Position numbers and translations under genes: made by a program. The notes under the pieces are model-generated. The model made no database searches, had not been told where the DNA came from, and saw only the letters and a list, made by a program, of their open reading frames with translations. Below, one piece after another: positions 1 through 64,000 of a stretch of DNA of 64,000 bases; the stretch's first letter is position 1, and each line of letters begins with the position of its first letter. Origin of the DNA: Alphaproteobacteria bacterium (GTDB lineage Bacteria; Pseudomonadota; Alphaproteobacteria; JAAXGF01); the NCBI GenBank assembly GCA_963555825.3, contig CAUVXB020000002.1, forward strand, positions 3,232,001 through 3,296,000, in the 5' to 3' direction.

Positions 1-1
1 C

Positions 2-2346: not shown

Positions 2347-2379
2347 AATCGGCCGGGGCGAATGGAAACGCCCGCGCTG

Positions 2380-2438
2380 ATTCCACGGCCTGAACGAACG
2401 CTTACTCGAACGGTAAGCGTTCGTTCAGGCCGTGGAAT
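2380..2438. repeat. Perfect 26-bp inverted repeat: IS66 right end, 7-bp spacer, IS66 left end
   Basis: attccacggcctgaacgaacgcttac (2380-2405) - tcgaacg - gtaagcgttcgttcaggccgtggaat (2413-2438). Confidence 0.9.
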
Positions 2439-4266: not shown

Positions 4267-4267
4267 T

Positions 4268-12549: not shown

Positions 12550-12667
12550 CCCCCCCGCCTTCCAGTCAGAGCAACCCTGACAGAAGGCTATACGCGGTCC
12601 CATTTTGGTCCGCCGCAGCCGGATCGACCGGCCGCTTCAGTGGGGGATTATTGCTCTGCCGTTCTCA

Positions 12668-15660: not shown

Positions 15661-15663
15661 GGC

Positions 15664-17328: not shown

Positions 17329-18754
17329 GCCACGACCTCCCAACGGATTGAGAATAATGGTTCCAGAACAGGTGCCGTATCCATACTTTGCGCGATGTCA
17401 TCCAGCATCTGATTGACTTCATCACGAATATTTTTACGCCGCTCAAAGGTCTTGAGCTTCATTTCATCGCGTTTGCCTTCCAGCCGCTGAATGCGCCTTT
17501 TTTCGTTCAACTTGTCAGCCATTGCCATCGCTATGTTGGTCCGCAGCGCTTTTCTGGCTGCTTTGATCTCCTCATCCATTTCCTTGATCTCAACCTCCGC
17601 CGCTTTTTCAAGATCATCGGCATAGGCATCGAGCTTATCCGTTTCCGCATCCAGCCATTCGGCATTTTGCTGCTGGGCCTCCTCGATAATTGCCTGCTGT
17701 TGCGCTGCTTCGACACCCAACAACGTGCTGTCTGGAATAGATGTTGTCGGAGAACCATTGTCGGTCGCTGGGACCAAGAAAAGGCGGTCCACGGTTTCAG
17801 GGTGAACTTCTTCCCCCTGATCTGTGATACACGCTGCAACGATATGCTCACGGACAGATTGAGGGGTTTTGATAGTGAGTTTTGACAGCTTCAACCAACC
17901 AGCTTTGCCGCCCAAATTTCTCACGTCGGCTATTACATTCGGATAGGCTGAATGGTCAAATCGCAAGCACTCAAGGCCAATCTCCCGTTCCTTAGCCTGA
18001 TTGACCAAAGTTTCTGCCAAATTCCCATCAGCCAGCCGAAAGAATTGCCAGCCTTCCTCATCGGCAAGCGGCCATTCCGTTGTGTAGGTATTTCCTTGAT
18101 AGTCAAAGCGTGGGCTCTGATCGCCGTGGAAATTCGCATCAGGCAACTCGGCGCGGGCAACGGTGATCAGTCGCCGGGTGAACTCATCCAACGACCCATC
18201 GATGATGCCCTTGCGGGCTTTCAGGCGACTGACAACATCCTGATCCATATGCTCCATCAGCTTTTTGCGAGCATCCAGCATATCGGCGTCGATCTTTTCC
18301 TCCATCTCTTCCTGAAGCATGTCGAAGGAAAGCTGCACTTCCTCGTCGCTGCGGGCCTCTTGCACGATCTCCAGTACCTTGCGCTCGAAATCAATGCCGC
18401 GCTCAATTGCGCCTAATACCTCATCACTTACGCCGAAGACCCCTTCAAACAGTTTGAATTTCTTCGCCAGCAATTCATAGACACGCGCTTCGGCTTTGTT
18501 CTTACGATTGAGAAGATTGACCACCGTTACGTCGAGCTTTTGGCCATATCGATGACAACGACCGATCCGCTGCTCTATCCTTTGCGGATTCCATGGCAAA
18601 TCGAAGTTCACGACAAGGGAACAGAATTGCAGGTTGATGCCCTCGGCACCTGACTCCGTTGAGACCAATATGCTTTTGTCTTGGGAATTATCCCTACTAC
18701 TTGACATCTTTACCCTGACTCCCTATATTCAAAGTGTCGCAAGGGAGAATGGAA

Positions 18755-19735
18755 ATGGCGAAAAAGGGACCGGGCGAAGCGCACCGCGAAGGGCTCACCA
18801 TTGTCCAGTTGATGGACATGTTCCCGACCGAAGAAGCCGCAACGGCATGGCTCGAGTCGGCGATCTGGTCTGACGGTGAGCGGCATTGCGGCAAGTGCGG
18901 ATCGACCCGAACCAGCGAGGTTCCGAACGCCAAGCCGATGCCTTACTGGTGCACGGATTGCCGCTCCTACTTCTCCGTTCGAACGGGCACGCCTCTCGCG
19001 CGCTCCAACGTGCCGTTGCGCAAGTGGGCTATCGCGATCTATCTTTGCTTGACGAGCCTCAAGTCGGTTTCTTCGATGAAGCTGTCCCGAGATATTGGCG
19101 TCAAGCAATCGACCGCTTGGTTCATGCTGCACCGTATCCGGGAAGCGTGGGCGGGCGAGTACGGCGGGCCTTTCGACGGGCCGGTCGAAGTTGATGAGAC
19201 TTACTTTGGCGGCAAGCGCAAGAACATGAGTAAGGCTAAGCGCAAAGAGTTGGCTGGCACCGGACGTGGCGCGGTTGGAAAGACTGCCGTGGTTGGAATG
19301 AAAGACCGCGACAGCAACAAAGTGACGGCCCGTGTCGTTGACGACACAGATGCCAAGACATTGCAGGGGTTCGTCACCGATCATGCCGCCCCCGATGCCA
19401 CGGTCTACACCGACGATCACGGCGGTTATCACGGAATGCCGTTCGAGCACGAGAGCGTCCGGCACAGCGTCGGCGAATACGTTGACGGGATGGCGCACAC
19501 CAACGGCATCGAGTCGTTCTGGTCGATGCTGAAACGCGCTCACAAGGGAACGTTCCACAAGATGAGCCCGAAGCATCTTGATCGTTACGTCCAGGAGTTC
19601 GCTGGTAAGCACAACATCCGCGAGTCAGGGACGCTTGCGCAGATGCGGGATACTGTTGCGCGGCTTGTCGGCCGCAACCTTCTCTACCGCGACCTCATCG
19701 CTGGCAACGGGCTTTCGAACGCGGGCCGGTCGTAA
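18755..19735 (+). CDS. IS1595-family transposase
   Basis: CxxC...CxxC zinc ribbon, VEVDETYFGG, VYTDD, HTNGIESFW, HLDRYVQEF. Confidence 0.93.
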   Translation: MAKKGPGEAHREGLTIVQLMDMFPTEEAATAWLESAIWSDGERHCGKCGSTRTSEVPNAKPMPYWCTDCRSYFSVRTGTPLARSNVPLRKWAIAIYLCLTSLKSVSSMKLSRDIGVKQSTAWFMLHRIREAWAGEYGGPFDGPVEVDETYFGGKRKNMSKAKRKELAGTGRGAVGKTAVVGMKDRDSNKVTARVVDDTDAKTLQGFVTDHAAPDATVYTDDHGGYHGMPFEHESVRHSVGEYVDGMAHTNGIESFWSMLKRAHKGTFHKMSPKHLDRYVQEFAGKHNIRESGTLAQMRDTVARLVGRNLLYRDLIAGNGLSNAGRS

Positions 19736-19828
19736 CGGTTCGACACGGCGGAACAGCGCGCGCGCCAGCGTCTCGGGCGTCGCGCCAACCAAATCCACCT
19801 TCGGATCAAGCTTCGGCATGTATTTCAT
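19625..19828 (-). CDS. Small ORF convergent with and overlapping the IS1595 transposase 3' end
   Basis: GGAGG 8 nt upstream of ATG 19828; MKYMPKLDPKVDLVGATPETLARALF... Confidence 0.45.
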   Translation of the reverse strand: MKYMPKLDPKVDLVGATPETLARALFRRVEPLRPARVRKPVASDEVAVEKVAADKPRNSIPHLRKRP

Positions 19829-19933
19829 GTTGCAGCCCTCCATTCGGCCATTGTGCGCCCGCCCTTGCTGCGATTACAGCCAGAGCAGAGCAGTTGCAGG
19901 TTGTCGCCGGTCCAGACCGTCCCGCTGGCGAAG

Positions 19934-20545
19934 TTAGCGGGCATCGGCTTGAGCGAGACGCTTGGCAAGAAATTCAATCCATTCTGTATGGTTCGTCACG
20001 GTCAGCCCCTTTTCGATCTTGGGATGGGACTCGCCTTGTTTGTCGAGAACGTGGCAGGCCCGCTCTAGGTGAAACAAGAGAGCGTTCGACTGCCCTTTTT
20101 CCCGAGCCGTAACTTTGGCAGGGAATTCCTGACCGCTGTATCGGATCAGCTCATCCAAGCACCGTTGAAGATCCGGGACGTTTTGCAGCCGCTTGTTGAC
20201 CAGCCGCGAGCCCCACCGTCGTCTCCATACAGATCGCATCCGAAGGATCGGCCTGCTCCAAGGTGGCGGCCTGACGCTCACGGTCGCTGTCGATGTCATG
20301 AGATGGAACGAAGCAGGTCTCGCATCAGCCGCGAAGCGCTCCTTCCCACCAAAAAGCTTTAACCCCTTTATGGCCGAACCAATATTTCGTCTGTGAGCTA
20401 TGGCAGCCGGCACAAAGGCTGCTACCGCCACGATTGCCCACCGCCAATCCCCCAGCGGAAGCCACGGTTCCATCATGAGCGCCACGGCGGCCGTCGCGAC
20501 GGCCACGCCGAAACCAAAAGTAATGGTTTTGAGCCACTGTCCCAT
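19934..20545 (-). CDS. Hypothetical membrane-anchored passenger protein of IS1595
   Basis: 203-aa ORF inside the IRs with two N-terminal hydrophobic segments. Confidence 0.6.
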   Translation of the reverse strand: MGQWLKTITFGFGVAVATAAVALMMEPWLPLGDWRWAIVAVAAFVPAAIAHRRNIGSAIKGLKLFGGKERFAADARPASFHLMTSTATVSVRPPPWSRPILRMRSVWRRRWGSRLVNKRLQNVPDLQRCLDELIRYSGQEFPAKVTAREKGQSNALLFHLERACHVLDKQGESHPKIEKGLTVTNHTEWIEFLAKRLAQADAR

Positions 20546-22101
20546 GCCCCGACGCTAGCCGACCGGGCCGGGAGCGTCAAGTAGTAGGGATAATTCCCTT
20601 TGTCTTCACCCTTGAACGCTTCGACAATTGCAGCCTTCATGTCCGCACTCTTAGAACCTGAGACCGCATCAGTACCTTGATGACGCTCTAACCAATCTGC
20701 ATATATGGCCTTGCTTCCGGCGTCATTGTTTGAGCCATTCATTAGTACGATCCGACCGTCAAAGCCGTTCGCAGCGAGCACCTCGCTCAAATATTTTTGG
20801 GTGCGAACCGATTCCGTAAATATGACTGCTTTTTCTTGGCCATCGCGCTTAACGATCTCAGCTAAAATTTCGGGGAGCTTTTCCACCAATTTCTCGCCCT
20901 TGGCATTTGAGCCAATAGAAAGCGCAAGATCCCGGTAAATTTTCAGTTCGGCAATCTCCGCTTCCCACAATTCGGGATCAATTGCCGGGCCTGTCGTCCC
21001 TGTTCCCTCTTCTTCCCCCCATTCTTCGGCCAGTTCATCGACGGTATCGATGTCATCAAGCACGCTCTCATCAATTCGCTTCTTCTCTTCAAGGCGCGTG
21101 ATGATGCCTTGCAGAAATTGCGAAATCGCAAAGGTGGAGGAGCCAAGAATTTTTCGGGCAACCAGCAACACAAGGTGATTAGTCCGGTCGCCGAACGCGA
21201 TGGTATCCTTTCGCTGTAGAAAGGCAGAGACCTGTTCATAAAGAAGCACTTCTTCGTTGCCAGATTCGAAGTCGAAGGTGCGAACAATACGCTTGGTGAA
21301 ATTAATGTGCCCGGCCTCGACCACCTGTCGTCGTAATGTCCGCAGGCAAACCTGAGCAAGCCTGCTCTTGAGAACAGAAAGAGTTGCCGGGCTGGCCCTC
21401 GCGTCGGTGTACATGGTACGGAACGAGTATTGATCGCCAAAATGATGATCGTCGATCATGGAGACGAGCCCGAAAAGTTCCATCAAAGAATTCTGCAAGG
21501 GCGTCGCGGTAAGAAGCATCTTGAATGGGCGTTGCAGAGCTTCCTTCAATTTTTTCGCACGTTTCGACCCGCTTTTCTTATAAACATTGCGGAGGCGATG
21601 CGCTTCATCGTAGATCACCAAATCCCAGTCTATGACGGCAACGTCATCGGCTTTTCCTGCTGCAAATTCGTAGGAAACGATAACCACTGCATTTTCTGCC
21701 TCGAAGGGGCGACGAACGTCTGATCTCAAGCGTTCTCGGTAGGTTTTGGCATCTAGAATGACGCTATCGAACGAAAATTTTTCACGCAGCTCCTGAGCCC
21801 ATTGCTTACGGAGCGAAGCTGGAACGATAAGCAGAACCTTGCGTTTCCGCTCGGCCCATTTCTGAGCAATGACCAGACATGCCTCAATGGTTTTTCCAAG
21901 ACCAACTTCGTCGCCAAGTATCACACCTTTCGATAGCGGGGATTGCAGAGCAAACAGCGCCGCATCCACCTGATGCGGGTTCATATCAACACGTGCGGTC
22001 GAGAGCGACTTTGCAAATGCCTCGTCGCCACTCCCTTCCAAGGTTATGCGGTGCGCCAAATACTGGCTATGGAACGGCGGGTAAGAACTCATAGAGTTGG
22101 T

Positions 22102-22860: not shown

Positions 22861-24114
22861 CTATGGCGGGTTTGACGGAGCCGCCGCGGCGGTTGCGTTC
22901 ATCAACGCATCTATCCGGTCAGCGATGCCCTGCGCGGGTTCGCGCAGTTGCCCGATGGTCCAGTCGGCCGCGTACCCCTCGGTGATGTCGTTGGGCCGGA
23001 CGTGGTTGACCAGCCGCTTGGTCAAAGTGCGCGGCAGCAGCAGGTCGCGCTCTGCCACCGTGATGAAACAATTCCGCAAAGCGTGGTACCAGAACTTCGT
23101 GCCGCCCGTCTCGCCGATCAGCCGGTAGAAATGAGCCAGGTCGACGACATGGCCCGAGGCGCTGGCGGAGGACGGGAACACCCAGTCCCGAAGCCCACCC
23201 GGGAGGGTCGCGATCACTGCCCGGCGGCGTTCGAGGATGGCGGCCAGTTGCCGGGTAATGGGCAGTTCCAGGGGCGCGCCGGTCTTGGTCTCGTCAACGC
23301 GGAAGACAAGCTCCGCCATGTCCACCCGCTCCCACCGGAGCGGCAACACCTCGTTCAGGCGCATGCCGGTATACAGCCCGAACCGGAACGCGTCCCGGGC
23401 AACCGGCGCGATGGCCCCCGCCTCGATGCCTTTCTTCCAGCGCGGCAGCACCTCCGCCGGAGCGGAGATCTTGCGCCGCTTCGGGGGATGATACTTGCCG
23501 CCGCCGGCGCGCCACAGCTCGACCGGGTTGCGCAGGCCCTCGAGATCGACGCAGGGCCGGCGATAGATCGAACCCAGGAGCGATATCGACATGTTGGCCG
23601 GCGCCCAACCGTTATTCCGGGTGAGGCTGTTGAAACGGTCCTCTACATCCCGGCGGCCGATGGCGTCGAGCGGACGCATGCGCCAGTCGGCGAGATAGCC
23701 GAATATGTTGCGATAGTGTTTATTGGTGCGCGCGGTCCGTTTGGGATTGACCGCCATGTAGTCATCGAAGGCTTGCTCGAGCAGGGGCATGCCGCCCGCC
23801 TCGGCGCGCCCGCCCACCGGACGGTCGCCGGCTTTGCGCAACACCCGCCGCGCCATATGCCGGGCTTGCTCGGCCGTTATCCCGCCGTGGCGGCCAAGAA
23901 CGACGCGCTTGTTGGGCGCCTTTCGTCCACCGTCGCCAGCGCGGTAGTTGACGATGTAGGATTTGAGGCCGGTGGGCTGCACCCGGATACCGAACCCGGT
24001 CAAGGTGTCATCCCAGGCGACCCAGGACTTGGCGGCGGGCTTCAGCGCCTCGACAGTGCGTTTGGTCAAGGACAGCTTGTTCAACGCGATACGTTTTCCG
24101 GAGGGTTTCGTCAT
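22861..24114 (-). CDS. Tyrosine recombinase (P4-like, arm-binding domain), pair 1 gene B
   Basis: ATG 24114 overlaps the upstream TGA; WDDTLTGFG, YTGMRLNE, ETKTG, YHALRN, LVNH, TEGY. Confidence 0.9.
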   Translation of the reverse strand: MTKPSGKRIALNKLSLTKRTVEALKPAAKSWVAWDDTLTGFGIRVQPTGLKSYIVNYRAGDGGRKAPNKRVVLGRHGGITAEQARHMARRVLRKAGDRPVGGRAEAGGMPLLEQAFDDYMAVNPKRTARTNKHYRNIFGYLADWRMRPLDAIGRRDVEDRFNSLTRNNGWAPANMSISLLGSIYRRPCVDLEGLRNPVELWRAGGGKYHPPKRRKISAPAEVLPRWKKGIEAGAIAPVARDAFRFGLYTGMRLNEVLPLRWERVDMAELVFRVDETKTGAPLELPITRQLAAILERRRAVIATLPGGLRDWVFPSSASASGHVVDLAHFYRLIGETGGTKFWYHALRNCFITVAERDLLLPRTLTKRLVNHVRPNDITEGYAADWTIGQLREPAQGIADRIDALMNATAAAAPSNPP

Positions 24115-25409
24115 TCCGGACTGATCCAGTGCGGCACGCGGGGCCTGCCGATGGAGCTTGCCGTGGCCGTTTTGGCCGGGCAATCGTTCATCAGCGCCTC
24201 GATCCGATCCGCGATGCGCTGAGCCGGTTCCCGCAGTTGCCCGATGGTCCAGTCGGCAGCGTAGCCCTCGGTGACGTCGTTGGGCCGGGCGTGGTTGACA
24301 AGCCGTTTGGTCAAGGACAGCGGCAGCAGCAGGTCGCGCTCGGCGACGGTAATGAAACAATTCCGCAGTGCGTGGTACCAGAACTTCGTGCCGCCCGCCG
24401 TTCCGATTCGCGCATAGAATTGACTGAGGTCAGAGATGTGGCCTGCTCTGGCTGAGGACGGGAACACCCAGCCGCGAAGATCGCCCGGTAGCGTTTCGCT
24501 CTCCCGGTTGCGGCGTTCGAGGATGGCCGCCAGTTGCCGGGTGATGGGCAGTTCCAGGGGCTCACCGGTCTTGGTCTCCTCGACCCGGAAGACAAGCCCC
24601 GCCATGTCCACTCGTTCCCACTGCAGGGACAGCACCTCGTTGAGGCGCATTCCCGTATAGAGCCCAAACCAGAATGCATCCCGGACCTTCGGCGTCGCCA
24701 CCACCGCTTCGATGCCCGCCCGCCAGCGCGGCAGCACCTCAGCGGGTGCGGAGATCTTGCGCCGCTTCGGGCGATGATACTTGCCGCCTCCGGCGCGCCA
24801 CAGGTCGACCGGGTTGCGCAGGCCCTCGAAATCGACGCAGGGCCGGCGGTATATCGAACCCAGGAGCGATATTCCCCGGTTGGCGCAGGCCCAGCCGTGA
24901 TCTTCCGTGAGGCGGCTGAAACGATCCTCCACGTCCCGCCGGGTGATGCTGTCAAGGGGACGCAGTTGCCAGCCGCCGAGATAGCGGGCGAACTGTTCAA
25001 GGTACAGTTTTTCGGTGCCCGCCGCCCGGTTGGGATTACCCGCCATGTAATCGGTGAAGGCCTGCTTGAGAAGAGGCATGCCGCGCACCTCGGCACGCTC
25101 GCCTGCCGGGTCGGCGCCACCAGCGACCTTGCCCAGTGCCTGATGGGCGAGACGCCTCGCCTGCTCGGGAGACATCCTGCCAAAGCGGCCAAGAACGACA
25201 CGCTTGTTGGATGCCTTTCTGCCACCGTTGCCGGTGCGGTAGTTGACGAAGAAGGATTTGATGCCGGAGGGATGCACCTGGATGCCGAAGCCGGTCAATT
25301 TGTCATCCCAGGCGATCCAGGGTTTATCCGCGGGCTCCATCGCCTCGACAGCGCGTTTGGTCAAGGTCAGCTTGTTCAGCGCGACACGTTTACCGGTATG
25401 TTTTGGCAT
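24111..25409 (-). CDS. Tyrosine recombinase (P4-like, arm-binding domain), pair 1 gene A
   Basis: WDDKLTGFG, YTGMRLNE, ETKTG, YHALRN, LVNH, TEGY; close paralogue of 22861-24114. Confidence 0.9.
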   Translation of the reverse strand: MPKHTGKRVALNKLTLTKRAVEAMEPADKPWIAWDDKLTGFGIQVHPSGIKSFFVNYRTGNGGRKASNKRVVLGRFGRMSPEQARRLAHQALGKVAGGADPAGERAEVRGMPLLKQAFTDYMAGNPNRAAGTEKLYLEQFARYLGGWQLRPLDSITRRDVEDRFSRLTEDHGWACANRGISLLGSIYRRPCVDFEGLRNPVDLWRAGGGKYHRPKRRKISAPAEVLPRWRAGIEAVVATPKVRDAFWFGLYTGMRLNEVLSLQWERVDMAGLVFRVEETKTGEPLELPITRQLAAILERRNRESETLPGDLRGWVFPSSARAGHISDLSQFYARIGTAGGTKFWYHALRNCFITVAERDLLLPLSLTKRLVNHARPNDVTEGYAADWTIGQLREPAQRIADRIEALMNDCPAKTATASSIGRPRVPHWISPE

Positions 25410-29025: not shown

Positions 29026-31594
29026 TGTCAATGGCGGAGCAAAAAGGGACCACCTCGGCGGTGTAAGAAGGGACCACTTGGCGGCTGCGGGCTTGTCCCC
29101 TAGTCCATGGGAGGGCCCCGCGTGCGACGCGGCGTGCCCTCAACAGGCCGACGCGGCGGCGCGCGCGGGAGGGACCTGTGGGCCCACGGGGTCAAGCGTG
29201 GGTTGGGTGGTCGGTTCAGTTCGCCGTCGGGGTTTGACGCCTGCGGCTCTGGTTGAGCCTGTAGCTGTCACCGTTCATCTCGAGGATGTTGACGTGGTGG
29301 GTGAGGCGGTCGAGGAGCGCGCCGGTGAGGCGCTCGGAGCCGAACACCTCGGTCCATTCGTCGAAGGGCAGATTGGTGGTGACCAGGGTCGAGCCCCGCT
29401 CGTAGCGTTGGCTGAACACCTCGAACAACAGCTCGGCGCCGGTCTTCGACAGCGGCACGAAGCCGAGTTCGTCGACGATCAGAAGCTTGTAGGTGGCGAG
29501 CTTCTTCTGGAACCTCAGCAGCTGCTTGTCATCGCGGGCCTCGATGAGTTCGTGGACCAGCGCGGCGGCGGTGATGAAGCCGACCGAGAGGCCCTTCTGG
29601 CAGGCCGCCAGGCCGAGACCGAGGGCGATGTGGGTCTTGCCGGTCCCACTGTTGCCGAGCGCGATGAGGTTCTCGCGGCGCTCGATGTACTCGCAGCGGG
29701 CCAGCTCCAGGACCAGCGCCTTGTTGAGCGAGGGGATGACCTTGAAGTCGAAGCTGTCGAGGCTCTTGACCACGGGGAAGCGCGCCGCCTTGATGCGCCG
29801 CTCGACCATGCGGCGCTCGCGGTCGATCAGCTCGAGCTCGGCGAGTCTCAACAGGTAGCGGACGTGATCGACGCCTTCCGAGGCGCACTGCCGGGCGATC
29901 TTGTCGTACTCGCGCAGGAAGGTCGGCAGCTTCAGCGTCTTGAGGTGGTGGGCGAGCAGCACTTGCGGTGTGTCGGTCATGCGCCGAGCCCCGACAGCAG
30001 GCTCATGTACGACTTGGCGGACGTCATCGCGACCCGGGCGCGCGGCAGATACGGATAGACGTCGAGGTTGAGCCTGGGCGGCCGCCGCTCGATGCGGCAC
30101 AGTACCAGGTGCTTCACCGCATCAAAGCCGATTGCGCCGAGCCGCAGGGCGTCGCCGACCGCACCCTCGACCTCCTCGAGCCGGAAGGTCTCCAGTAGAC
30201 GGAGCACCTGGACGTACTCGCGCTTGCCTGCCTTGCCCATACGAGCTTCGAGGAGCCGCCGCAGAGTGATGAAGGCCTCGGGCAGGTCCCAGCCCGCCAA
30301 TGGCGCGGCCTGGTCGAGGGCGCCGATCTTCTGCTCGATCAAGGGCAGGTAATGCAGCGGGTCGAAGATCAGGTCCTCGCTGTCGTAGGACCGGCGGTGC
30401 CGGGCGATCACCTCGGCCCCGCAGCTGATCACCACCTCATCGACGTAGCCCCGGATGAGCACCTCACGGTGGCCGTAGGCCACGGGCACGGAATAGTCGT
30501 TGCTGCGGTAACGCACCAGCGACAGCGAACTCGCCCGTCCAGGGCGCTTATCGCAGGCATCATAGGGAGCAGGCGGCAATGGCAAGAGAACTTGACGATC
30601 CCGCTCGAGACGCTCGCCGATGGTCTCCTTGTGGCCCCGCAGCCGCGCCGCCTGGCGCCGGCGGCACTGTTCGGCGAGAGCATCGTTGAGGGCCGCGAAG
30701 CTCTCGGCACGCGGGACGGGGACCAGGAAGTTCCGCCGGATGAAGCCGACCAGTCCCTCGACCTTGCCCTTGTCGTTGCCCTTGCCCGGCCGGCCGAACC
30801 TGTCCTCGAACAGATAGTGGGACTGAAGCTCCGTGAAGACGCGCGTTCGCTGCCGCTTCCCATCGCCCAGGATGCGGGCAACCGCCAGCTTGGTGTTGTC
30901 GTACAGGATGGATCGGGGGACGCCGCCGAAGAAGGCAAACGCCGCGTTGTGGCCATCGCAGAATGCTTCGGTCGTCTCCGCCGGATAGGCCGCAACAAAG
31001 CAACCATCACTGTGGGGAAGGTCGAAGGCAAGGAAGTGGATCTTCCGTAACGCGCCGCCGATCACCGCCATCGCTTCGCCGAAGTCCGCCTGGGCGTGAC
31101 CGGGGGAATGGGAGAGTGGCACGAACACCTCACGCGACCGAAGCCCCTGCTCACGAACGTAGTCCTTCACGATGGTGTAGCCGCCCGTGAAACCGTACTC
31201 GTCCCGGAGGCGGTCGAAGATGCGCTTCGCAGTGTGCCGTTGCTTGCGGTGGCTGGTCCGATCGTCTTCCAAGATCCGATCGATGATTCCCGTGAACGGA
31301 CCCAGCTTTGGCCGCCTCGGCGGCGCGCTTCGGCGATACCCTGGCGGCACCGAGAACGACAGCATCTTACGGACCGTCTTGCGGTCTACACCAAACACCC
31401 GCGAGGCCTCGCGGGTGCTCATCCCCTCGACATGACACGCCCGCCGAACCCGTGCGTACAACTCCACCCGATACATCCCCCCCGCCTTCCAGTCAGAGCA
31501 ACCCTGACAGAAGGCTATACGCGGTCCCATTTTGGTCCGCCGCAGCCGGATCGACCGGCCGCTTCAGTGGGGGATTATTGCTCTGCCGTTCTCA
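29026..31594 (-). mobile_element. IS21-family element copy 2 (istA 29977-31476, istB 29216-29980)
   Basis: IstA and IstB identical to copy 1; same ends; no target duplication. Confidence 0.95.
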
Positions 31595-39231: not shown

Positions 39232-41799
39232 TGTCAATGGCGGAGCAAAAAGGGACCACCGTGGCGGTGTAAGAAGGGACCACTTGGCGGCTGCGGGCTT
39301 GTCCCCTAGTCCATGGGAGGGCCCCGGGTGCGACGCGGCGTGCCCTCAACAGGCCGACGCGGCGGCGCGCGCGGGAGGGACCTGTGGGCCCACGGGGTCA
39401 AGCGTGGGTTGGGTGGTCGGTTCAGTTCGCCGTCGGGGTTTGACGCCTGCGGCTCTGGTTGAGCCTGTAGCTGTCACCGTTCATCTCGAGGATGTTGACG
39501 TGGTGGGTGAGGCGGTCGAGGAGCGCGCCGGTGAGGCGCTCGGAGCCGAACACCTCGGTCCATTCGTCGAAGGGCAGATTGGTGGTGACCAGGGTCGAGC
39601 CCCGCTCGTAGCGTTGGCTGAACACCTCGAACAACAGCTCGGCGCCGGTCTTCGACAGCGGCACGAAGCCGAGTTCGTCGACGATCAGAAGCTTGTAGGT
39701 GGCGAGCTTCTTCTGGAACCTCAGCAGCTGCTTGTCATCGCGGGCCTCGATGAGCTCGTGGACCAGTGCGGCGGCGGTGATGAAGCCGACCGAGAGGCCC
39801 TTCTGGCAGGCCGCCAAGCCGAGACCGAGGGCGATGTGGGTCTTGCCGGTGCCGCTGTTGCCGAGCGCGATGAGGTTCTCGCGGCGCTCGATGTACTCGC
39901 AGCGGGCCAGCTCCAGGACCAGCGCCTTGTTGAGCGAGGGGATGACCTTGAAGTCGAAGCTGTCGAGGCTCTTGACCACGGGGAAGCGCGCCGCCTTGAT
40001 GCGCCGCTCGACCATGCGGCGCTCGCGGTCGATCAGCTCGAGCTCGGCGAGTCTCAACAGGTAGCGGACGTGATCGACGCCTTCCGAGGCGCACTGCCGG
40101 GCGATCTTGTCGTACTCGCGCAGGAAGGTCGGCAGCTTCAGCGTCTTGAGGTGGTGGGCGAGCAGCACTTGCGGTGTGTCGGTCATGCGCCGAGCCCCGA
40201 CAGCAGGCTCATGTACGACTTGGCGGACGTCATCGCGACCCGGGCGCGCGGCAGATACGGATAGACGTCGAGGTTGAGCCTGGGCGGCCGCCGCTCGATG
40301 CGGCACAGTACCAGGTGCTTCACCGCATCAAAGCCGATTGCGCCGAGCCGCAGGGCGTCGCCGACCGCACCCTCGACCTCCTCGAGCCGGAAGGTCTCCA
40401 GTAGACGGAGCACCTGGACGTACTCGCGCTTGCCTGCCTTGCCCATACGAGCTTCGAGGAGCCGCCGCAGAGTGATGAAGGCCTCGGGCAGGTCCCAGCC
40501 CGCCAATGGCGCGGCCTGGTCGAGGGCGCCGATCTTCTGCTCGATCAAGGGCAGGTAATGCAGCGGGTCGAAGATCAGGTCCTCGCTGTCGTAGGACCGG
40601 CGGTGCCGGGCGATCACCTCGGCCCCGCAGCTGATCACCACCTCATCGACGTAGCCCCGGATGAGCACCTCACGGTGGCCGTAGGCCACGGGCACGGAAT
40701 AGTCGTTGCTGCGGTAACGCACCAGCGACAGCGAACTCGCCCGTCCAGGGCGCTTATCGCAGGCATCATAGGGAGCAGGCGGCAATGGCAAGAGAACTTG
40801 ACGATCCCGCTCGAGACGCTCGCCGATGGTCTCCTTGTGGCCCCGCAGCCGCGCCGCCTGGCGCCGGCGGCACTGTTCGGCGAGAGCATCGTTGAGGGCC
40901 GCGAAGCTCTCGGCACGCGGGACGGGGACCAGGAAGTTCCGCCGGATGAAGCCGACCAGTCCCTCGACCTTGCCCTTGTCGTTGCCCTTGCCCGGCCGGC
41001 CGAACCTGTCCTCGAACAGATAGTGGGACTGAAGCTCCGTGAAGACGTGCGTTCGCTGCCGCTTCCCATCGCCCAGGATCCGGGCAACCGCCAGCTTGGT
41101 GTTGTCGTACAGGATGGATCGGGGGACGCCGCCGAAGAAGGCAAACGCCGCGTTGTGGCCATCGCAGAATGCTTCGGTCGTCTCCGCCGGATAGGCCGCA
41201 ACAAAGCAACCATCACTGTGGGGAAGGTCGAAGGCAAGGAAGTGGATCTTCCGTAACGCGCCGCCGATCACCGCCATCGCTTCGCCGAAGTCCGCCTGGG
41301 CGTGGCCGGGGGAATGGACGAGCGGCACGAACATCTCGCGCGACCGAAGCCCCTGCTCACGAACGTAGTCCTTCACGATGGTGTAGCCGCCGGTGAACCC
41401 GTACTCGTCCCGGAGACGGTCGAAGATCCGCTTCGCCGTGTGCCGTTGCTTGTGGTGGCTGGTCCGATCGTCTTCCAGAATCCGATCGATGATCCCCGTG
41501 AACGGACCCAGCTTCGGCCGCCGTGGCGGCTTGCCGCGGCGATACCCCGGCGGCACCGAGAACGACAGCATCTTGCGTACCGTCTTGCGGTCCAGCCCGA
41601 ACACCCGCGAGGCCTCGCGGGTGCTCATTCCCTCGACACGACACGCCCGCCGGACCCGCGCGTACATCTCCACCCGATACATCCCCCCGCCTTCCAGTCA
41701 GAGCAACCCTGACAGAAGGCTATACGCGGTCCCATTTTGGTCCGCCACAGCCGGATCAACCGGCCGCTTCAGTGGGGGATTATTGCGCCGCCGTTCTCA
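39232..41799 (-). mobile_element. IS21-family element copy 3 (istA 40183-41682, istB 39422-40186), mosaic variant
   Basis: Same ends as copies 1 and 2; istA 5' region diverged. Confidence 0.95.
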
Positions 41800-58352: not shown

Positions 58353-59540
58353 GTGGCAAACCGCATCCCCCGTATCTCCAAGCGCTCGGTCGATGCCGTC
58401 AAGGCCGGTGGGACGGATGCCGTCTATTGGGATGGAGAACTCACCGGATTCGGCCTGCGTGTTCGGCGCTCGGGACGCAAGAGCTACGTCGTCCAGACCC
58501 GCATCGCCGGGAAACTATGCTGGTTCACCATCGGCCCTCACGGACCGCTGAACCCGGATCAGGCGCGCGCCCGCGCGCTGGAGATATTGGCTTGTGCGAA
58601 GAAAGGCATCGATCCACGCGACGCAGACGCCCGACGCGAGGCTGAGCCAAGCATGGCTGATCTCGGGCGCAGGTTCCTGGAGGAATATGTCCCGGTCCAC
58701 TGCAAACCGAGCACCCGGGAAGAGTACAGCCGTTCGGTGAGGCTGTTTGTCGACCCCGTGATCGGGGAGTTGCGGGTTCCAGAGGTGCAGCGCAAGGACA
58801 TTGCCGCACTGCATCACGGCCTGCGGGACAAGCCCTATCAGGCCAACCGGACGCTCGGGGTGCTGTCCAAGATGTTCTCCCTCGCCGAAGTCTGGGGCTG
58901 GCGCCCCGACGGCTCCAATCCCTGCCGGCATGTCAAGCGCTACAAGGAGCACAAGCGGGAGCGGTTCCTGTCGCCGGAAGAGACCGAGCGGTTGGGCCAG
59001 GTCCTGCGCGATGTCGAGGAAGAGATGCCCTCGGCAGTAGCCGCCTTCCGCCTGCTTCTGCTGACGGGCTGCCGGATGTCGGAAATCCGGGATCTCCGCT
59101 GGGAGTACGTTAAGGACGACTGTATCGAGCTTCCCGATGCCAAGACCGGCGGACGGGTGGTGCCACTGGGTCCCGAAGCCCGCGCGGTGTTGTCATCCAT
59201 TCCCCGTGACGAGGACAATCCCTGGGTCATCGCGGGCCGCCTCCCCGGCTCTCACCTCACCGATCTGCAACGCCCATGGCGGCGCATCCGCAAGCAGGCG
59301 GGCCTTGAGGGCGTGCGGATCCACGATTTGCGCCACAGCTTTGCCTCGCGCGCGCTGGCTCTCGGCGAAAGCCTGACTATGATTGGGAAACTGCTCGGGC
59401 ACACCCAGGTGCAAACGACTGCCCGCTATGCCCACCTCGCCAGGGACTCCATCCAGACCGCCGCCGCCCGCATCACCGGAAGCATCGGCGGAAATCTCTT
59501 GGGTGATCACGAAAAGAATCGTGCTCTCACCCAGGGATGA
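58353..59540 (+). CDS. Tyrosine integrase (P4-like) next to the tRNA-Met att site
   Basis: WDGELTGFG, LTGCRMSE, DAKTG, HDLRH, LGH, TARY. Confidence 0.92.
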   Translation: MANRIPRISKRSVDAVKAGGTDAVYWDGELTGFGLRVRRSGRKSYVVQTRIAGKLCWFTIGPHGPLNPDQARARALEILACAKKGIDPRDADARREAEPSMADLGRRFLEEYVPVHCKPSTREEYSRSVRLFVDPVIGELRVPEVQRKDIAALHHGLRDKPYQANRTLGVLSKMFSLAEVWGWRPDGSNPCRHVKRYKEHKRERFLSPEETERLGQVLRDVEEEMPSAVAAFRLLLLTGCRMSEIRDLRWEYVKDDCIELPDAKTGGRVVPLGPEARAVLSSIPRDEDNPWVIAGRLPGSHLTDLQRPWRRIRKQAGLEGVRIHDLRHSFASRALALGESLTMIGKLLGHTQVQTTARYAHLARDSIQTAAARITGSIGGNLLGDHEKNRALTQG

Positions 59541-60539: not shown

Positions 60540-61391
60540 ATGGGCAAGCATCTGTCGGACGCGGAGCTGCGCCGCTATCACGACGACGGTTTCGTCTTTC
60601 CGATCGACATCCTGAACCCGCGGGAGGCGCTCGACTGCCGCCGCCGGCTCGAGGCGTTCGAGGCCGAGCACGGCAAGATGAAATACGCCATGAAGCCGTA
60701 TCTGACGATGCTGCTCGCCGACGAGTTGGCGCATCACCCGGCGCTGCTCGACGCGGCCGAGGACGTCATCGGGCCGAACCTTCTGTTGTGGGACGGCGCC
60801 TTCATCATCAAAGAGCCCCATGACGACCGCTTCATCAGCTGGCACCAGGACCTGACCTATTGGGGCGTCGAGCCGGCCGAGGGTGTCGTCTCGGTGTGGC
60901 TGGCGCTCTCGCCAGTCGGGCCCGAGAACGGTGGCATGCGCGTCATTCCGGGCAGCCACGCGCAGGACATTCTGCCGCACGCGGACACCTTCGAGGCCGA
61001 CAACTTGTTGAGCCGGGGTCAGACCATCGCCGCCGAGATCGACGAGGACAGCGCGGTCGATATGCGGCTCGCGCCGGGTCAGATGTCGCTGCATCACGGC
61101 CGCGTCGTGCACGGCTCGAACCCGAGCCATTCCGACGAGCGGCGCATCGGCCTCAACTTCCAGTTCATCGCGCCCGAGGTGCGCCAGACCGCGATCGACA
61201 ACGACATGGCGTTGCTGGTGCGCGGCGCCGACACTTGCGGCCATTTCGAGCCCGAGGCGCGGCCGGCCGCCGATCTCGATCCGGCGGCGCTGGCGCTGGT
61301 CGCCGAGATCGCGCGGCGCCGCCACAAGCTACTGTTCCGCGGCGCCGAGGCCGACGAGGCCGAACTTAACCGCCGCTACGGCGCCGCCTGA
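60540..61391 (+). CDS. PhyH-family Fe(II)/2-oxoglutarate dioxygenase
   Basis: SWHQDLTYW, VWLALS, GGMRVIPGSH, HGSNP...RRIG. Confidence 0.9.
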   Translation: MGKHLSDAELRRYHDDGFVFPIDILNPREALDCRRRLEAFEAEHGKMKYAMKPYLTMLLADELAHHPALLDAAEDVIGPNLLLWDGAFIIKEPHDDRFISWHQDLTYWGVEPAEGVVSVWLALSPVGPENGGMRVIPGSHAQDILPHADTFEADNLLSRGQTIAAEIDEDSAVDMRLAPGQMSLHHGRVVHGSNPSHSDERRIGLNFQFIAPEVRQTAIDNDMALLVRGADTCGHFEPEARPAADLDPAALALVAEIARRRHKLLFRGAEADEAELNRRYGAA

Positions 61392-61636
61392 GCCGGCACC
61401 TCGCCAGGCGCAGGTGCCCCGCGCAATCAAGGAGGCGTATGCACCAATTAAGGAGACCAATTAAGGGGACGTGATACTTAATTATTGGTAACTACCCAGG
61501 TACCCCGCTCCTGACCGCGAGAGGATGATGTAGGTGGTCGCCGGGGCCGGGTTTCCGCCGCCGCGTCGTTGATCGTCTCTTGACTCCATAGAATCGGGCG
61601 TCTATGGGTTGCGCTCTCGTGTGACGGGAGCGGCGC

Positions 61637-62302
61637 GTGGAATATTTTGGGTCGAAGGCGACGAGCGGTCTGTGCCAGGCGCTGATTGCGCTGATGCCGC
61701 CGCACAGCGTTTACATCGAGAGCCACCTGGGGGGCGGTGCGCTGATGAAGCGCAAGCCAACGGGCGTGCGCTCGATCGGCATCGACCGCGATGCGCAGGC
61801 GCTCGAGGCCTTTGCCTGTGACTACCCGGTCGAGTTGGTGCATGGCTGTGCCCATGCCTTTTTGGCCTCGTTCCCGTTTCTGGGCCCGGAGCTGGTCTAC
61901 AGCGATCCCCCCTATCTGCACGCGACCCGCCGTTCGGCACGGCGCTATCGCTTCGACTACGAGGAGGTCGACCATGTCGCGCTCCTGGACCTGCTCAAGG
62001 ATCTGCCCTGCCAGGTGATGGTCTCGGGCCATCCCTCGGCGCTCTATGACGAGATGCTGGCGGGCTGGCGCAGTCTGGCGCTGCAGGTGACGACCCAGGC
62101 CCAGGTGCGGACCGAGGTCGTGTGGTTCAACTTCGCGCCCGACCGGGTGCATTGGGCGAGCTACGCAGGCCGGAACTTCACCGACCGCCAGCGCATCAAG
62201 CGTAAGGCGGCCAACTGGGGCCGGCGTTACAAGGCCTTGCCGGCGGGCGAACGCCTCGCGGTGCTGGCCGCCATGATGGCCGTCGATGCCGAGGACCCGT
62301 GA
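61637..62302 (+). CDS. Dam-like (D12 class) N6-adenine DNA methyltransferase
   Basis: YFGSK, IESHLGGGAL, YSDPPY, VMVSG, EVVWFNF. Confidence 0.85.
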   Translation: MEYFGSKATSGLCQALIALMPPHSVYIESHLGGGALMKRKPTGVRSIGIDRDAQALEAFACDYPVELVHGCAHAFLASFPFLGPELVYSDPPYLHATRRSARRYRFDYEEVDHVALLDLLKDLPCQVMVSGHPSALYDEMLAGWRSLALQVTTQAQVRTEVVWFNFAPDRVHWASYAGRNFTDRQRIKRKAANWGRRYKALPAGERLAVLAAMMAVDAEDP

Positions 62303-63837
62303 CGCTGTCGCGCTGGCACGAGGACCTCGCCGCCCATGACGAGGCCTTCGCGTGCCTGCAAGATCTTCTTGACCCCTCATCCTTCGCAACCACAGTCGTC
62401 AAGGCCTTCCGGGAATGGGGCCAGGGGCTGTTGCGCCTGGCCACGGCGCTCGTCCGGGAGAATGCCGCGCTCGAGCGGGAGAACGCGACCCTGCGGGACC
62501 GCATCGCCGAGCTCGAGCGGAGCGCGGCGCTTGACAGCACCACCAGCAGCAAGCCGCCCGCCAGCGACGGCCTGCGCAAGAAGAGCGGAACCCAGAGGCG
62601 CACCCGAAGCCAGCGCGGCAAGTCCGGCAGGCCAAGCGGCGGCCAGCCGGGCCACAAGGGAACGACGCTGGCGCGGACCGAGAGCCCGGACCATGTTGTG
62701 GATCATGACCCCTCCGCCTGTTCGGGCTGCGGCGCACCGCTGTCGGACGCCGACCGTCACCGCGCGCCCGTCTGTCGACAGGTCTTCGATGTGCCCGAGC
62801 CACGCCCCCTGGAGGTCACCGAACACCGCGCCCATCGCTGCCTCTGCGGCGCCTGCGCCACCGTGACAGGAGCCGTCTTCCCGGACGGCATGACCGCCCC
62901 GGTCCAGTACGGGCCACGCATCACCGCCTGGGTGAGCTACCTGCTGTACGCCCAGTTCGTTCCCGAGAAGCGCTTGGCCGAACTCATGAGCGACCTCTTC
63001 GCAGTGTCCATCTCCACAGCCACGATCACCGCCATGGGCCGGCGAACCGCCAGGCGCTTCGAGCCCTTCCTCGCCCATGTCGCAGACGTGATCCGCACAG
63101 CGGTCCCGGTCAAGCACCTCGACGAAACCGGCCTGCGGATCGCCGCCCGTACCCGCTGGCTCCACGTGCTGTGCACCCCATTCCTGACCGTCCTGCGCAT
63201 CGGCGCGGGACGCGGCGATGTCGAAAAGGACCTCGAAGGCATCCTCATCCATGACGATTACGCCGCCTACTTCACCCTCAAGGGCGTGCGCCACGGCGCC
63301 TGCAACGCCCATCACCTGCGCGAACTCCAGGCCCTGATCGACATCGAGAAGGAAGACTGGGCAAAGAGCATGCACCGCCTCCTTGAGCGCGCACACAGGG
63401 CTACCCGCTTCTCCCGTGAGAACGGCCGCGACGTGCCCGCCTCCCTGGTGGCCCGGATCTCGCGGGCCTGGGCCCGCATCCTCGACCACGCCATCGCCTT
63501 CCACGAGGCGCAGCCGCCGCTCCGGACCGGCAAGCGCGGACGAAAGAAACGCCGCATCGGTCATAACCTCGCGCTCCGCCTCCGCAAGCACAAGGAGGGA
63601 TGCCTGCGATTCCTCACCGACCCGCGCACGCCGTTTACGAACAATGAGGCCGAACGTGACCTCCGAATGGCCAAGCTGCGCCAGAAGATCTCCGGTGGCT
63701 TCCGCTCCGAGAGGGGTGCCTACAACTTCGCCAGAATGCGTGCCGTCATCGCCACCGCCCGAAAGCAAGGCTGGAACGTCCTCCAGACCCTGGTGCATCC
63801 CGATCCGATGCAACTAATCCCCCAACTGCGCCTCTGA
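62299..63837 (+). CDS. tnpC: IS66-family transposase
   Basis: SSKPPASDG, GGQPGHKG, CSGC, YGPRI, HLDETG, CNAHHLREL, TNNEAERDLR, KISGGF. Confidence 0.95.
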   Translation: MTLSRWHEDLAAHDEAFACLQDLLDPSSFATTVVKAFREWGQGLLRLATALVRENAALERENATLRDRIAELERSAALDSTTSSKPPASDGLRKKSGTQRRTRSQRGKSGRPSGGQPGHKGTTLARTESPDHVVDHDPSACSGCGAPLSDADRHRAPVCRQVFDVPEPRPLEVTEHRAHRCLCGACATVTGAVFPDGMTAPVQYGPRITAWVSYLLYAQFVPEKRLAELMSDLFAVSISTATITAMGRRTARRFEPFLAHVADVIRTAVPVKHLDETGLRIAARTRWLHVLCTPFLTVLRIGAGRGDVEKDLEGILIHDDYAAYFTLKGVRHGACNAHHLRELQALIDIEKEDWAKSMHRLLERAHRATRFSRENGRDVPASLVARISRAWARILDHAIAFHEAQPPLRTGKRGRKKRRIGHNLALRLRKHKEGCLRFLTDPRTPFTNNEAERDLRMAKLRQKISGGFRSERGAYNFARMRAVIATARKQGWNVLQTLVHPDPMQLIPQLRL

Positions 63838-64000
63838 GAACACCGGCACCGCTACCAGCCCGGACCCGAGGCAGGCCATGGACCGCTGTGGAAGGCAACG
63901 GCGCGGCGAATCGGAGCCACGCCTCGGGCGAAGACGTACGATGACCAGTCGGGCTGAACCTGGGATCATGGCCGTCGCGCACACCCACTGGTGCACCGCT

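What the first reader, a model, noticed from the sequence alone, without database searches (positions are those of the whole stretch)
61488..63837. IS66 carrying a Dam-like methyltransferase where tnpA/tnpB normally sit
Seen: IS66-type left end, then an intact DPPY methyltransferase overlapping the transposase start (GTGA), with no partner nuclease. The unrelated IS66 at the window start likewise has a GTGA-coupled passenger. Established: host Dam methylation regulates IS10 and IS50, and orphan methyltransferases shield mobile DNA from restriction. Inference: IS66 lineages that encode their own DNA-modifying enzyme, either to time transposition epigenetically or to evade RM systems such as the type III locus here. 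This is the best candidate for an undescribed system in the window.
Basis: partly seen in the sequence, partly recalled or inferred. Interest (0 to 1): 0.78.

Follow-up and report, generated by a model that had tools for sequence, protein, structure and literature searches.

The report
IS66 element with Dam-like regulator gene
A jumping gene of the IS66 family carries, in front of its transposase gene, a small gene that looks like a DNA methylase but most likely works as a self-limiting switch for the element, and the same gene cassette also sits inside unrelated jumping genes.

Summary
Window 61488-63867 is a copy of a 2431-bp IS66-family insertion sequence. Complete copies have 14-bp inverted ends and 8-bp target duplications that enclose both genes. 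The window copy has lost its last 51 bp, including the right end, so that end is not beyond 64000.

Gene 1 (221 aa) has a Dam/DpnM-like core with the SAM motifs and an invariant DPPY. It lacks the DNA-recognition domain and ends in a two-helix tail. It overlaps tnpC by GTGA.

It is 46% identical to IncP-1 plasmid Upf31. In print, Upf31 represses its own promoter and gave no detectable methylation. The IS gene sits behind the same layout: TTGAC, then a palindrome (ATAG-N10-CTAT) that fills the spacer and runs into the -10-like hexamer.

This roughly 757-bp promoter-palindrome-gene cassette also lies inside IS elements built on unrelated DDE_5 and ISAs1-like transposases, each with its own ends and duplications.

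Best reading: a portable autorepressor that throttles the transposase operon. It is probably not an anti-restriction methylase. Methylation limited to the operator is not excluded.

Earlier agents of this scan reached much the same reading on other DNA. I found no paper describing the IS-borne form. ISfinder could not be queried.

The parts
61488..61501 (+). Left inverted repeat, GTAACTACCCAGGT. The right repeat is missing from this copy.
   Evidence: Same 14 bp at both ends of complete copies, with 8-bp duplications outside them. Identity with the sister copy starts here.
61564..62320 (+). Portable cassette: promoter-like site, palindrome and the Dam-like gene.
   Evidence: Only this stretch (element positions 77-833) is shared, at 82.9% over 761 columns, with an IS built on an unrelated DDE_5 transposase (L092).
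61580..61608 (+). TTGACT (61580-61585), a 17-nt spacer, then TATGGG (61603-61608). This is a putative promoter, inferred and not called by the scan tool.
   Evidence: TTGAC-N3-ATAG-N10-CTAT lies upstream of the gene in 64 of 79 loci and occurs once elsewhere in those loci. It occurs only at the 2 full IS copies in the 6.04-Mb genome, and 0 times in the reversed control. The layout matches the pJP4 upf31 upstream region. The promoter scan found 0 sites.
61586..61607 (.). Palindrome CCATAGA-N8-TCTATGG, the putative operator.
   Evidence: Arms 61586-61592 and 61601-61607 are 100% complementary. The palindrome is conserved across IS lineages.
61637..62302 (+). Upf31-family Dam-fold protein gene (221 aa; motif X YFGSK, motif I HLGGGA, DPPY; no TRD; C-terminal two-helix hairpin).
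62299..63837 (+). tnpC, the IS66-family DDE transposase (512 aa). Its start overlaps the upstream stop in GTGA.
63838..63867 (+). Remaining 3' untranslated part of the IS. The copy is truncated after 63867, with 51 bp including the right repeat lost.
   Evidence: Contigs of 3 of 4 laid runs continue after 63867 with the canonical right end instead.

Best explanation
Window 61488-63867 is a right-end-truncated copy of a 2431-bp IS66-family insertion sequence. Its organisation is the single-transposase type, with no tnpA or tnpB.

Between the left inverted repeat and tnpC, the IS carries a portable cassette of about 757 bp. The cassette holds a promoter-like site, a palindrome that fills the promoter spacer and overlaps the -10-like hexamer, and a 221-aa gene of the Upf31 family. 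The protein has a Dam-like SAM-fold core without a target-recognition domain, plus a C-terminal helical hairpin. tnpC is translationally coupled to this gene (GTGA), and I saw no promoter-like site of its own.

Inferred mechanism: the protein binds the palindrome, probably as a dimer, and represses transcription of its own operon. Transposase output is then held low. Because the repressor acts in trans, output is held lower still as copy number rises.

Shown here: the anatomy, the mobility of the whole unit, the homology to Upf31, the conserved palindrome, and the cassette inside three transposase families. Inferred: operator binding, repression, and the effect on transposition.
For: 1. Integral to the IS.
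- Complete copies have 14-bp inverted ends and 8-bp duplications that enclose both genes. This holds for 3 of 4 copies in G018; the fourth is cut at its left end.
- The same holds in divergent IS66 lineages: L084, L085, L099 and L103.

2. Linkage. All 79 of 79 loci from about 25 assemblies (my count of the record titles) have a transposase gene or remnant directly downstream on the same strand. The split is IS66 73, DDE_5 5, ISAs1-like 1.

3. The cassette moves as a unit.
- Only element positions 77-833 are shared with the DDE_5 IS, at 82.9% identity.
- The DDE_5 IS has its own 18-bp ends, and all 3 of 3 copies have 3-bp duplications.
- The ISAs1-like IS has 14-bp ends and a 9-bp duplication.
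- The protein is 70-76% identical where the TnpCs are only 29-37% identical.
- DDE_5-borne and IS66_B-borne proteins nest inside the IS66_A protein clade, with SH-aLRT 99.

4. Add-on to a simpler IS. The nearest TnpC relatives found (43-51% identity, 6 loci in 4 genomes) have no such gene. Four of them, in 2 genomes, carry GTAACTRC ends spaced for a 1583-bp element, and 8-bp duplications were read at the own-genome pair.

5. Homology to a studied autorepressor.
- The protein is 46% identical (E 1e-49) to the IncP-1 gene annotated Upf31.0 or DNA methylase.
- Elg et al. report that Upf31 represses its own promoter (4.76 to 0.09 XylE units).
- They name inverted CAGCATCG repeats as the likely operator.
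- They predict a C-terminal dimerisation domain.
- They saw no methylation by SMRT or GATC digests.

6. Same layout. pJP4 has TTGACAGCATCG-N10-CGATGCTG upstream of its gene. The IS lineages have TTGAC-N3-ATAG-N10-CTAT in 64 of 79 loci, or 73 of 79 with a looser pattern, and the strict pattern occurs once elsewhere in the loci. In the own genome it occurs only at the 2 full IS copies.

7. Structure. The AF2 model (pLDDT 91.3) shows a Rossmann-type core plus helices 181-200 and 203-219. About 100 residues of DpnM (78-183) have no counterpart in this protein.
Against: - No binding, repression or transposition was measured for this protein. The mechanism is carried over from a 46%-identical plasmid protein whose operator sequence differs.
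- DPPY is invariant, and motifs X, I and II are kept. This holds in 48 diverse sequences, and 131 of 150 cluster representatives have DPPY, with most of the rest being fragments. A pure repressor would not obviously need them.
- The scan tool called no sigma-70-type promoter in 61400-64000, because TATGGG fails its -10 rule.
- High protein identity across IS families may reflect recent cassette spread and not function.
- In the DDE_5 IS the transposase gene starts 67 bp after the cassette gene, so coupling is not universal.
Confidence: 0.6

Rival explanations
1. The protein is an active N6-adenine methyltransferase of very narrow specificity. It methylates adenines in its own palindrome (ATAG/CTAT, one arm overlapping the -10-like hexamer). 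Operon and transposase expression would then depend on methylation state, for example a burst from hemimethylated DNA after replication. This would be an element-encoded version of the Dam control of IS10/IS50 (that control is recalled).
For: - DPPY and the SAM-binding motifs are invariant or nearly so across the family, including in Upf31 of pJP4.
- The adenines of the conserved half-sites sit in the spacer and the -10-like hexamer.
- By my reading of the methods passages, the published negative SMRT test expressed upf31 from a vector in a methylase-free E. coli. A single long operator site could escape such a motif-based test.
Against: - Elg et al. saw no methylation signal and did see strong autorepression.
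- The protein has no recognisable target-recognition domain.
- There are no methylation data for this element.
Confidence: 0.2
2. One reading: the protein is an orphan protective methyltransferase that shields the IS or its carrier DNA from restriction, such as the type III system in this window.
For: - Relatives sit mostly on conjugative plasmids (134 of 189 plasmid records) and in some phages, where orphan methylases are common.
- Database names for relatives are 'DNA adenine methylase' or 'DNA methylase'.
- A type III res/mod pair is present at 12973-17343.
Against: - No target-recognition domain is present.
- The studied relative produced no genome-wide methylation.
- An IS that transposes within a genome is already modified by the host's own Mod enzyme.
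- The tight, conserved position in front of transposase genes of three families, behind an operator-bearing promoter, points to control of the operon.
Confidence: 0.07
3. The gene is selfish or neutral cargo with no role in transposition, for example a plasmid regulator picked up by chance. Alternatively it acts on host or plasmid genes; Upf31 alters kor gene expression in IncP-1 plasmids.
For: - IS elements with passenger genes (tIS) are a known class (PMC9330008, passages).
- Upf31 alters expression of plasmid regulators (abstract and passages).
Against: - The cassette was acquired or exchanged among at least three transposase families, and always lies upstream of and co-directional with the transposase gene.
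- In the own genome the palindrome occurs only at the two full IS copies, so no other target of this exact form is seen there.
Confidence: 0.08

Closest known systems
IS66 family, single-transposase organisation (the ISBst12-type subgroup; this name is recalled from ISfinder and comes from no call)
   Same: - DDE_Tnp_IS66 / NF033517 transposase.
- Ends that begin with GTAA.
- 8-bp target duplications.
- No tnpA or tnpB.
- A 1583-bp single-ORF sister IS with near-identical ends lies in the same genome.
   Different: An extra cassette of about 757 bp (promoter-like site, palindrome, Dam-fold gene) sits between the left end and tnpC, and its gene is translationally coupled to tnpC.
Upf31 (upf31.0) of IncP-1 beta plasmids (Elg et al., Mol Biol Evol 2025, PMC11997246; bioRxiv 10.1101/2024.02.05.579024)
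   Same: - 46% identity over residues 1-194.
- Same length class, with DPPY and motif I kept and a C-terminal helical tail.
- A promoter whose -35 is followed by inverted repeats spaced by 10 nt.
- Published autorepression and no detected methylation.
   Different: - The half-sites differ (CATAG against GCATCG).
- This gene lies inside insertion sequences and in front of a transposase, not in a plasmid backbone next to kor-regulated genes.
- The paper's main text never mentions 'transposase' or 'insertion sequence' (0 occurrences each).
Dam / DpnM / T4 Dam (D12-class, alpha-type N6-adenine DNA methyltransferases)
   Same: - Motif X, motif I, the motif II acid and DPPY align to these enzymes.
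- They are the best structural matches: DpnM E 3e-7, Dam 4e-7, TM about 0.5.
   Different: - About 100 residues of the DNA-recognition domain are absent.
- There is no Pfam MethyltransfD12 hit at E<=0.01, and the TIGR00571 score is far below its cut-off.
- Many non-DNA methyltransferases score almost as well by fold.
IS-encoded transposition inhibitors and repressors, and Dam control of IS10/IS50 (recalled from textbook knowledge; not tested here)
   Same: The proposed logic is the same: an element-encoded or methylation-based brake on transposase expression.
   Different: Here the brake would be a domesticated methyltransferase fold with its own operator, and it is exchangeable between IS families.

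Membership tests
IS66 family insertion sequence | DDE transposase of the IS66 type (TnpC) | tested here: met
   PF03050 at E 3e-41; NF033517 at 289.6 bits against a cut-off of 180.
IS66 family insertion sequence | Terminal inverted repeats that begin with GTAA | tested here: met
   GTAACTACCCAGGT at both ends of complete copies. In the window copy only the left repeat is present. That this feature defines the family is recalled.
IS66 family insertion sequence | 8-bp target-site duplication | tested here: met
   Found in 3 of 4 G018 copies, the fourth being left-truncated. Not seen at the window copy (truncated) or at the C1 copy.
IS66 family insertion sequence | Accessory genes tnpA and tnpB upstream of tnpC (canonical IS66) | tested here: not met
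   Only two ORFs lie in the element. ORF1 has no Pfam hit and is Dam-like. The element therefore fits the single-transposase subgroup and not canonical IS66.
Dam-family (D12) N6-adenine DNA methyltransferase | Family profile match above threshold | tested here: not met
   No Pfam family at E<=0.01. TIGR00571 scores 24.2 bits against a cut-off of 114.85.
Dam-family (D12) N6-adenine DNA methyltransferase | Catalytic DPPY and SAM-binding motifs | tested here: met
   D90, P91 and P92 are invariant and Y93 nearly so. G32, G34, E28 and K7 are nearly invariant. The motifs align to DpnM and Dam.
Dam-family (D12) N6-adenine DNA methyltransferase | Target-recognition domain between the SAM-binding and catalytic motifs | tested here: not met
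   Query positions 66-81 span DpnM residues 78-183, so about 100 residues are missing.
Dam-family (D12) N6-adenine DNA methyltransferase | DNA adenine methylation activity | not testable with these tools
   The only experimental data concern the relative Upf31 and are negative by SMRT and GATC digests (Elg et al.). The supplements were not seen.
Upf31 family (IncP-1 beta upf31.0) | Sequence homology over most of the length | tested here: met
   46.0% identity over residues 1-194, E 1e-49, to records annotated Upf31.0 or DNA methylase. Alignment.
Upf31 family (IncP-1 beta upf31.0) | Own promoter with an inverted-repeat operator | tested here: met
   The layout is the same by sequence only. The half-site sequences differ.
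Upf31 family (IncP-1 beta upf31.0) | C-terminal helical (dimerisation) domain | tested here: inconclusive
   Helices 181-200 and 203-219 are present in the AF2 model. Dimerisation itself is not established here.
Upf31 family (IncP-1 beta upf31.0) | Autorepression | not testable with these tools
   Shown only for the plasmid protein (Elg et al., section 11).

The most novel reading that the evidence does not exclude
The Dam-fold protein is a base-flipping operator binder. It either methylates only the adenines of its own palindrome or captures them in the DPPY pocket, including the adenine at position 2 of the -10-like hexamer. It would then act as a portable brake on transposase expression, either epigenetic or by competing with sigma factor. 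Insertion sequences of at least three unrelated transposase families have acquired this brake independently or exchanged it.
Probability: 0.2. Interest if true: 0.8.

Novelty: new variant of a known kind. Interest (0 to 1): 0.58.

Why it matters
How most insertion sequences limit their own activity is poorly known, and the roles of IS66 accessory genes are unknown (this point is recalled, not from a call).

Here a ready-made control cassette, consisting of a promoter, an operator and a domesticated methyltransferase fold, is shared by IS elements with unrelated transposases across several phyla. That gives a directly testable model for copy-number control of transposition.

It also matters for annotation. 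The family has 5554 clusters at E<=0.001, and its members are labelled 'DNA adenine methylase'. Those labels may be wrong or incomplete.

If the catalytic motifs turn out to be used on the operator itself, this would be an element-encoded epigenetic switch.

Tried and rejected
- **Homodimer test (complex prediction).** The verdict was 'no answer' (scores 0.23 and 0.25, mark 0.42). It counts neither for nor against dimerisation.

- **Expression.** Of the 20 runs listed, 12 are on record as RNA, from 3 studies, and hold most of the stretch. Contigs of 4 runs laid on 61200-64000 cover 61488-63867. The tool warns that RNA libraries can contain DNA and that contigs show no starts, so I do not count this as proof of transcription. 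No start near 61615 could be read.

- **Promoter scan.** It returned 0 sigma-70-type sites, so the promoter is inferred from conservation and from the upf31 promoter layout only.

- **Terminator-like hits inside the ORFs.** I did not pursue these: 4 were found against 1.5 expected.

- **Right end beyond the window.** I looked for it in 7 kb downstream (L023) and did not find it.

- **A direct methylase-transposase complex as the reason for the missing recognition domain.** I rejected this as the main idea, because the same protein (84-86% identity) serves unrelated transposases.

- **The look-up of encoding contigs.** Only the 79 closest genome loci, 189 plasmid records and 75 phage records were seen.

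- **Sources I could not check.** ISfinder and TnCentral cannot be queried here, so the IS may already be registered.

- **Literature searches for the IS-borne form.** Searches found no paper describing it.
Full report
**What is in the window.** Two same-strand ORFs lie at 61637-62302 (221 aa) and 62299-63837 (512 aa). They overlap in GTGA at 62299-62302. The second ORF is an IS66-family transposase: PF03050 at E 3e-41, DUF6444, and NF033517 at 289.6 bits against a cut-off of 180. The first ORF has no Pfam family at E<=0.01 and only a sub-threshold dam hit (TIGR00571, 24 bits against 115). It does carry YFGSK, HLGGGA and DPPY.

**Limits of the element.**
- The window's genome (G000) holds three copies.
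- The window copy and a copy on contig 1 are 99.87% identical over 2381 bp, beginning one base before GTAAC at 61488 and ending at 63867.
- The third copy is cut inside the first gene and is interrupted near its right end.
- A genome of another family in the same class (G018) holds four copies at about 99.7-99.8% identity.
- Three of these are 2431 bp, begin and end with the 14-bp inverted repeat GTAACTACCCAGGT, and are flanked by 8-bp duplications (GTTCGAGT, CCAGGAGG, GAATTATC). The fourth is truncated at its left end.
- Both genes therefore move as one IS.
- The window copy lacks the last 51 bp, including the right repeat.
- Beyond 63867 the sequence matches, at 90%, a paralogous stretch on contig 1. 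That stretch continues leftwards where the window has the IS, so the IS end and neighbouring DNA were lost together.
- Contigs from 3 of 4 laid runs continue after 63867 with the canonical right end.

**What the 221-aa protein is.**
- It belongs to a large, well conserved family: 3794 hits in the 90%-clustered collection and 5554 clusters at E<=0.001 in the 50% library.
- D90, P91 and P92 are invariant, and the glycine-rich motif is nearly so, in 48 sequences down to 38% identity. DPPY occurs in 131 of 150 representatives; of the 19 others, 2 have DPPH and most of the 17 without the motif are short fragments.
- A family profile aligns to DpnM (1.4e-9) and Dam (6e-6) in two blocks: motifs X, I and II, and then DPPY onwards. 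The roughly 100 residues of DpnM between them (78-183) have no counterpart.
- The AF2 model is confident (pLDDT 91.3). It shows a Rossmann-type core plus two C-terminal helices at 181-200 and 203-219.
- Foldseek ranks DpnM, Dam and T4 Dam first (TM about 0.5), but many RNA and small-molecule methyltransferases score close behind.

**Relatives with a history.**
- In PLSDB, 189 plasmid records hold a relative, all below 60% identity, and 134 of them are conjugative plasmids. IncP-1 records annotated Upf31.0 or DNA methylase match at 46% over residues 1-194 (E 1e-49).
- 75 phage records also hold relatives, the best at 48% identity.
- Elg et al. studied Upf31 of pBP136. I read the outline, sections 11 and 12 and passages of the bioRxiv version, and passages of the Mol Biol Evol version. 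They report:
  - no GATC methylation and no SMRT signal;
  - strong repression of the upf31 promoter by full-length protein (4.76 to 0.09 XylE units);
  - inverted CAGCATCG repeats as the likely operator;
  - a predicted C-terminal dimerisation domain.
- Their main text does not mention transposases or insertion sequences (0 occurrences each). I could not see their supplements.

**A conserved control site.**
- Notes of earlier agents in this scan pointed me to a palindrome-bearing promoter, and I tested that lead.
- Upstream of the gene the window has TTGACT (61580-61585), a 17-nt spacer and TATGGG (61603-61608).
- The perfect palindrome CCATAGA-N8-TCTATGG (61586-61607) fills the spacer and overlaps the -10-like hexamer.
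- The pattern TTGAC-N3-ATAG-N10-CTAT lies within 130 nt upstream of the gene in 64 of 79 loci (22 of 32 distinct upstream sequences). A looser form is present in 73 of 79. The strict form occurs once elsewhere in those loci on either strand.
- In the 6.04-Mb genome the pattern occurs only at the two full IS copies, with 0 hits in the reversed control.
- pJP4 has the same layout in front of its upf31 gene: TTGACAGCATCG-N10-CGATGCTG.
- The consensus promoter scan called nothing in 61400-64000, because TATGGG fails its -10 rule. The promoter is therefore inferred, not shown.

**The cassette is not tied to IS66.**
- A scan of one genome per species found 534 confirmed relatives, of which the best 80 were kept (79 distinct loci, about 25 assemblies by my count of the record titles).
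- They come from Alpha- and Gammaproteobacteria, Chloroflexota, Binatia, Tectimicrobiota and a planctomycete, going by the record titles.
- With five transposase queries, all 79 loci have a transposase gene or remnant just downstream on the same strand:
  - IS66 lineage A: 57 loci;
  - IS66 lineage B: 7 loci;
  - IS66 lineage C: 9 loci, one of them a remnant;
  - DDE_5 (PF13546): 5 loci, two of them truncated;
  - DDE_Tnp_1 with DDE_Tnp_1_assoc: 1 locus. I call this one ISAs1-like; that name is recalled.
- The DDE_5 element has its own 18-bp ends, and all 3 of 3 copies have 3-bp duplications (TTA, TCA, TAA).
- The ISAs1-like element has 14-bp ends and a 9-bp duplication.
- IS66 lineages B and C have GTAAC ends and 8-bp duplications in 4 of 4 copies read.
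- The window IS and the DDE_5 IS share only element positions 77-833 (82.9% identity). That stretch is the promoter-like site, the palindrome and the gene.
- The proteins stay 70-76% identical where the TnpCs are only 29-37% identical.
- In a quick maximum-likelihood tree (38 rows; one row dropped for too few filled columns), the DDE_5-borne and lineage-B-borne proteins nest inside the lineage-A protein clade (SH-aLRT 99). Yet lineage B's TnpC is closer to lineage C (52% against 33-37%).
- The root of that tree rests on a long plasmid branch that the tool flagged.
- Each label is as clustered as it can be on the tree (4 changes, the minimum possible). The sample therefore shows a few transfers, not constant shuffling.

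**An add-on to a simpler IS.**
- Among 301 genomes of the class, 5 have a TnpC match at E<=1e-60.
- The 7 matches at 99-100% identity, in G000 and G018, lie in the IS copies mapped above; the gene is whole in 6 and cut in the third G000 copy.
- The 6 loci with 43-51% identical TnpC, from 4 genomes, have no match to it (tblastn E<=0.01).
- Four of them, in G000 and G204, carry GTAACTRC ends spaced for a 1583-bp single-ORF element; no such ends were found at the other two. The 8-bp duplications were read at the own-genome pair.

**Reading.**
- The first gene is an integral control module of the IS. It is placed so that everything transcribed towards tnpC passes its palindrome, and tnpC translation is coupled to it.
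- By homology with Upf31, the most likely action is autorepression, which would hold transposase low and lower still as copies accumulate.
- Restriction evasion is unlikely for three reasons: the protein has no recognition domain, the studied relative gave no methylation, and the window's type III system (res 12973-15660, mod 15664-17343) has its own methylase.
- The conserved catalytic motifs remain unexplained by a pure repressor.
- I therefore keep open methylation or adenine capture restricted to the operator. A motif-based SMRT test without the operator in cis could miss this.

**Prior notes and print.**
- This scan noted the same IS and cassette before on other DNA: e1-2462456, e1-3108145 and e1-4064956. 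Their readings (a cassette shared by several transposase lineages, a palindrome-bearing promoter, a probable throttle) agree with what I tested here.
- Literature searches found no paper on an IS-borne Upf31-like gene.
- IS elements with passenger genes are a known class (PMC9330008, passages).
- ISfinder could not be queried.

**Verdict.** This is a new variant of a known kind, of moderate to good interest.

Noticed in passing
window 1-2405: A second, unrelated IS66-family IS with at least 8 full copies at about 100% identity in the genome. Its TnpC (2-1468, cut by the window start) is followed by a GTGA-coupled ORF (1465-2346) with a Pfam DruA domain (PF14236, E 4e-39).
   Followed up: partly
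window 12973-22092: Type III restriction-modification pair: res 12973-15660 (ResIII) and mod 15664-17343 (N6_N4_Mtase). Helicase and SNF2 ORFs lie next to it at 17325-18707 and 20473-22092.
   Followed up: partly
window 11050-12603, 29977-31530, 40183-41682: Three ORFs with rve plus Mu-transpos_C_2 domains, probably copies of one IS (two have identical scores). Together with a T4SS coupling protein (3962-5770) and integrases (22861-24360, 58353-59540), they suggest the window lies in a mobile island.
   Followed up: no
L023 3006-4688 (window 63868 onwards and beyond its end): Directly after the truncated IS lies a 560-aa ORF that joins Y-family polymerase domains (IMS, IMS_C) to a Phage_integrase domain. 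It is probably a chimera at a rearrangement junction. About 5.9 kb is inserted here relative to the paralogous stretch on contig 1.
   Followed up: partly
L094 3912-5049 and G042 genome-wide: A 1138-bp non-autonomous element with IS66-type ends holds only the promoter-palindrome-gene cassette plus a tnpC remnant. The genome search returned 65 matches in all, mostly short pieces. In the three examined, a left end of about 145 bp (with the palindrome) adjoins about 330 bp of the right part, MITE-like.
   Followed up: partly
G000 contig 1, L004/L005 (C1:1617598-1619184 and its twin): A 1583-bp single-ORF sister IS with ends GTAACTGCCCAGGTAG and 8-bp duplications (GCTTATTT, GAACGTTC). Its TnpC is 51% identical, and it has no methylase-like gene.
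   Followed up: yes
L096 3816-6065: An ISAs1-like IS (DDE_Tnp_1_assoc plus DDE_Tnp_1) with 14-bp inverted ends and a 9-bp duplication (CATTCGATC). It carries the same cassette and is single-copy in its genome.
   Followed up: yes
window 61641 and 61648: The window copy differs from the sister copy, and from contigs of 3 of the 4 laid runs, at two bases in codons 2 and 4 of the gene. Codon 2 gives Glu where the family consensus has Gly.
   Followed up: no
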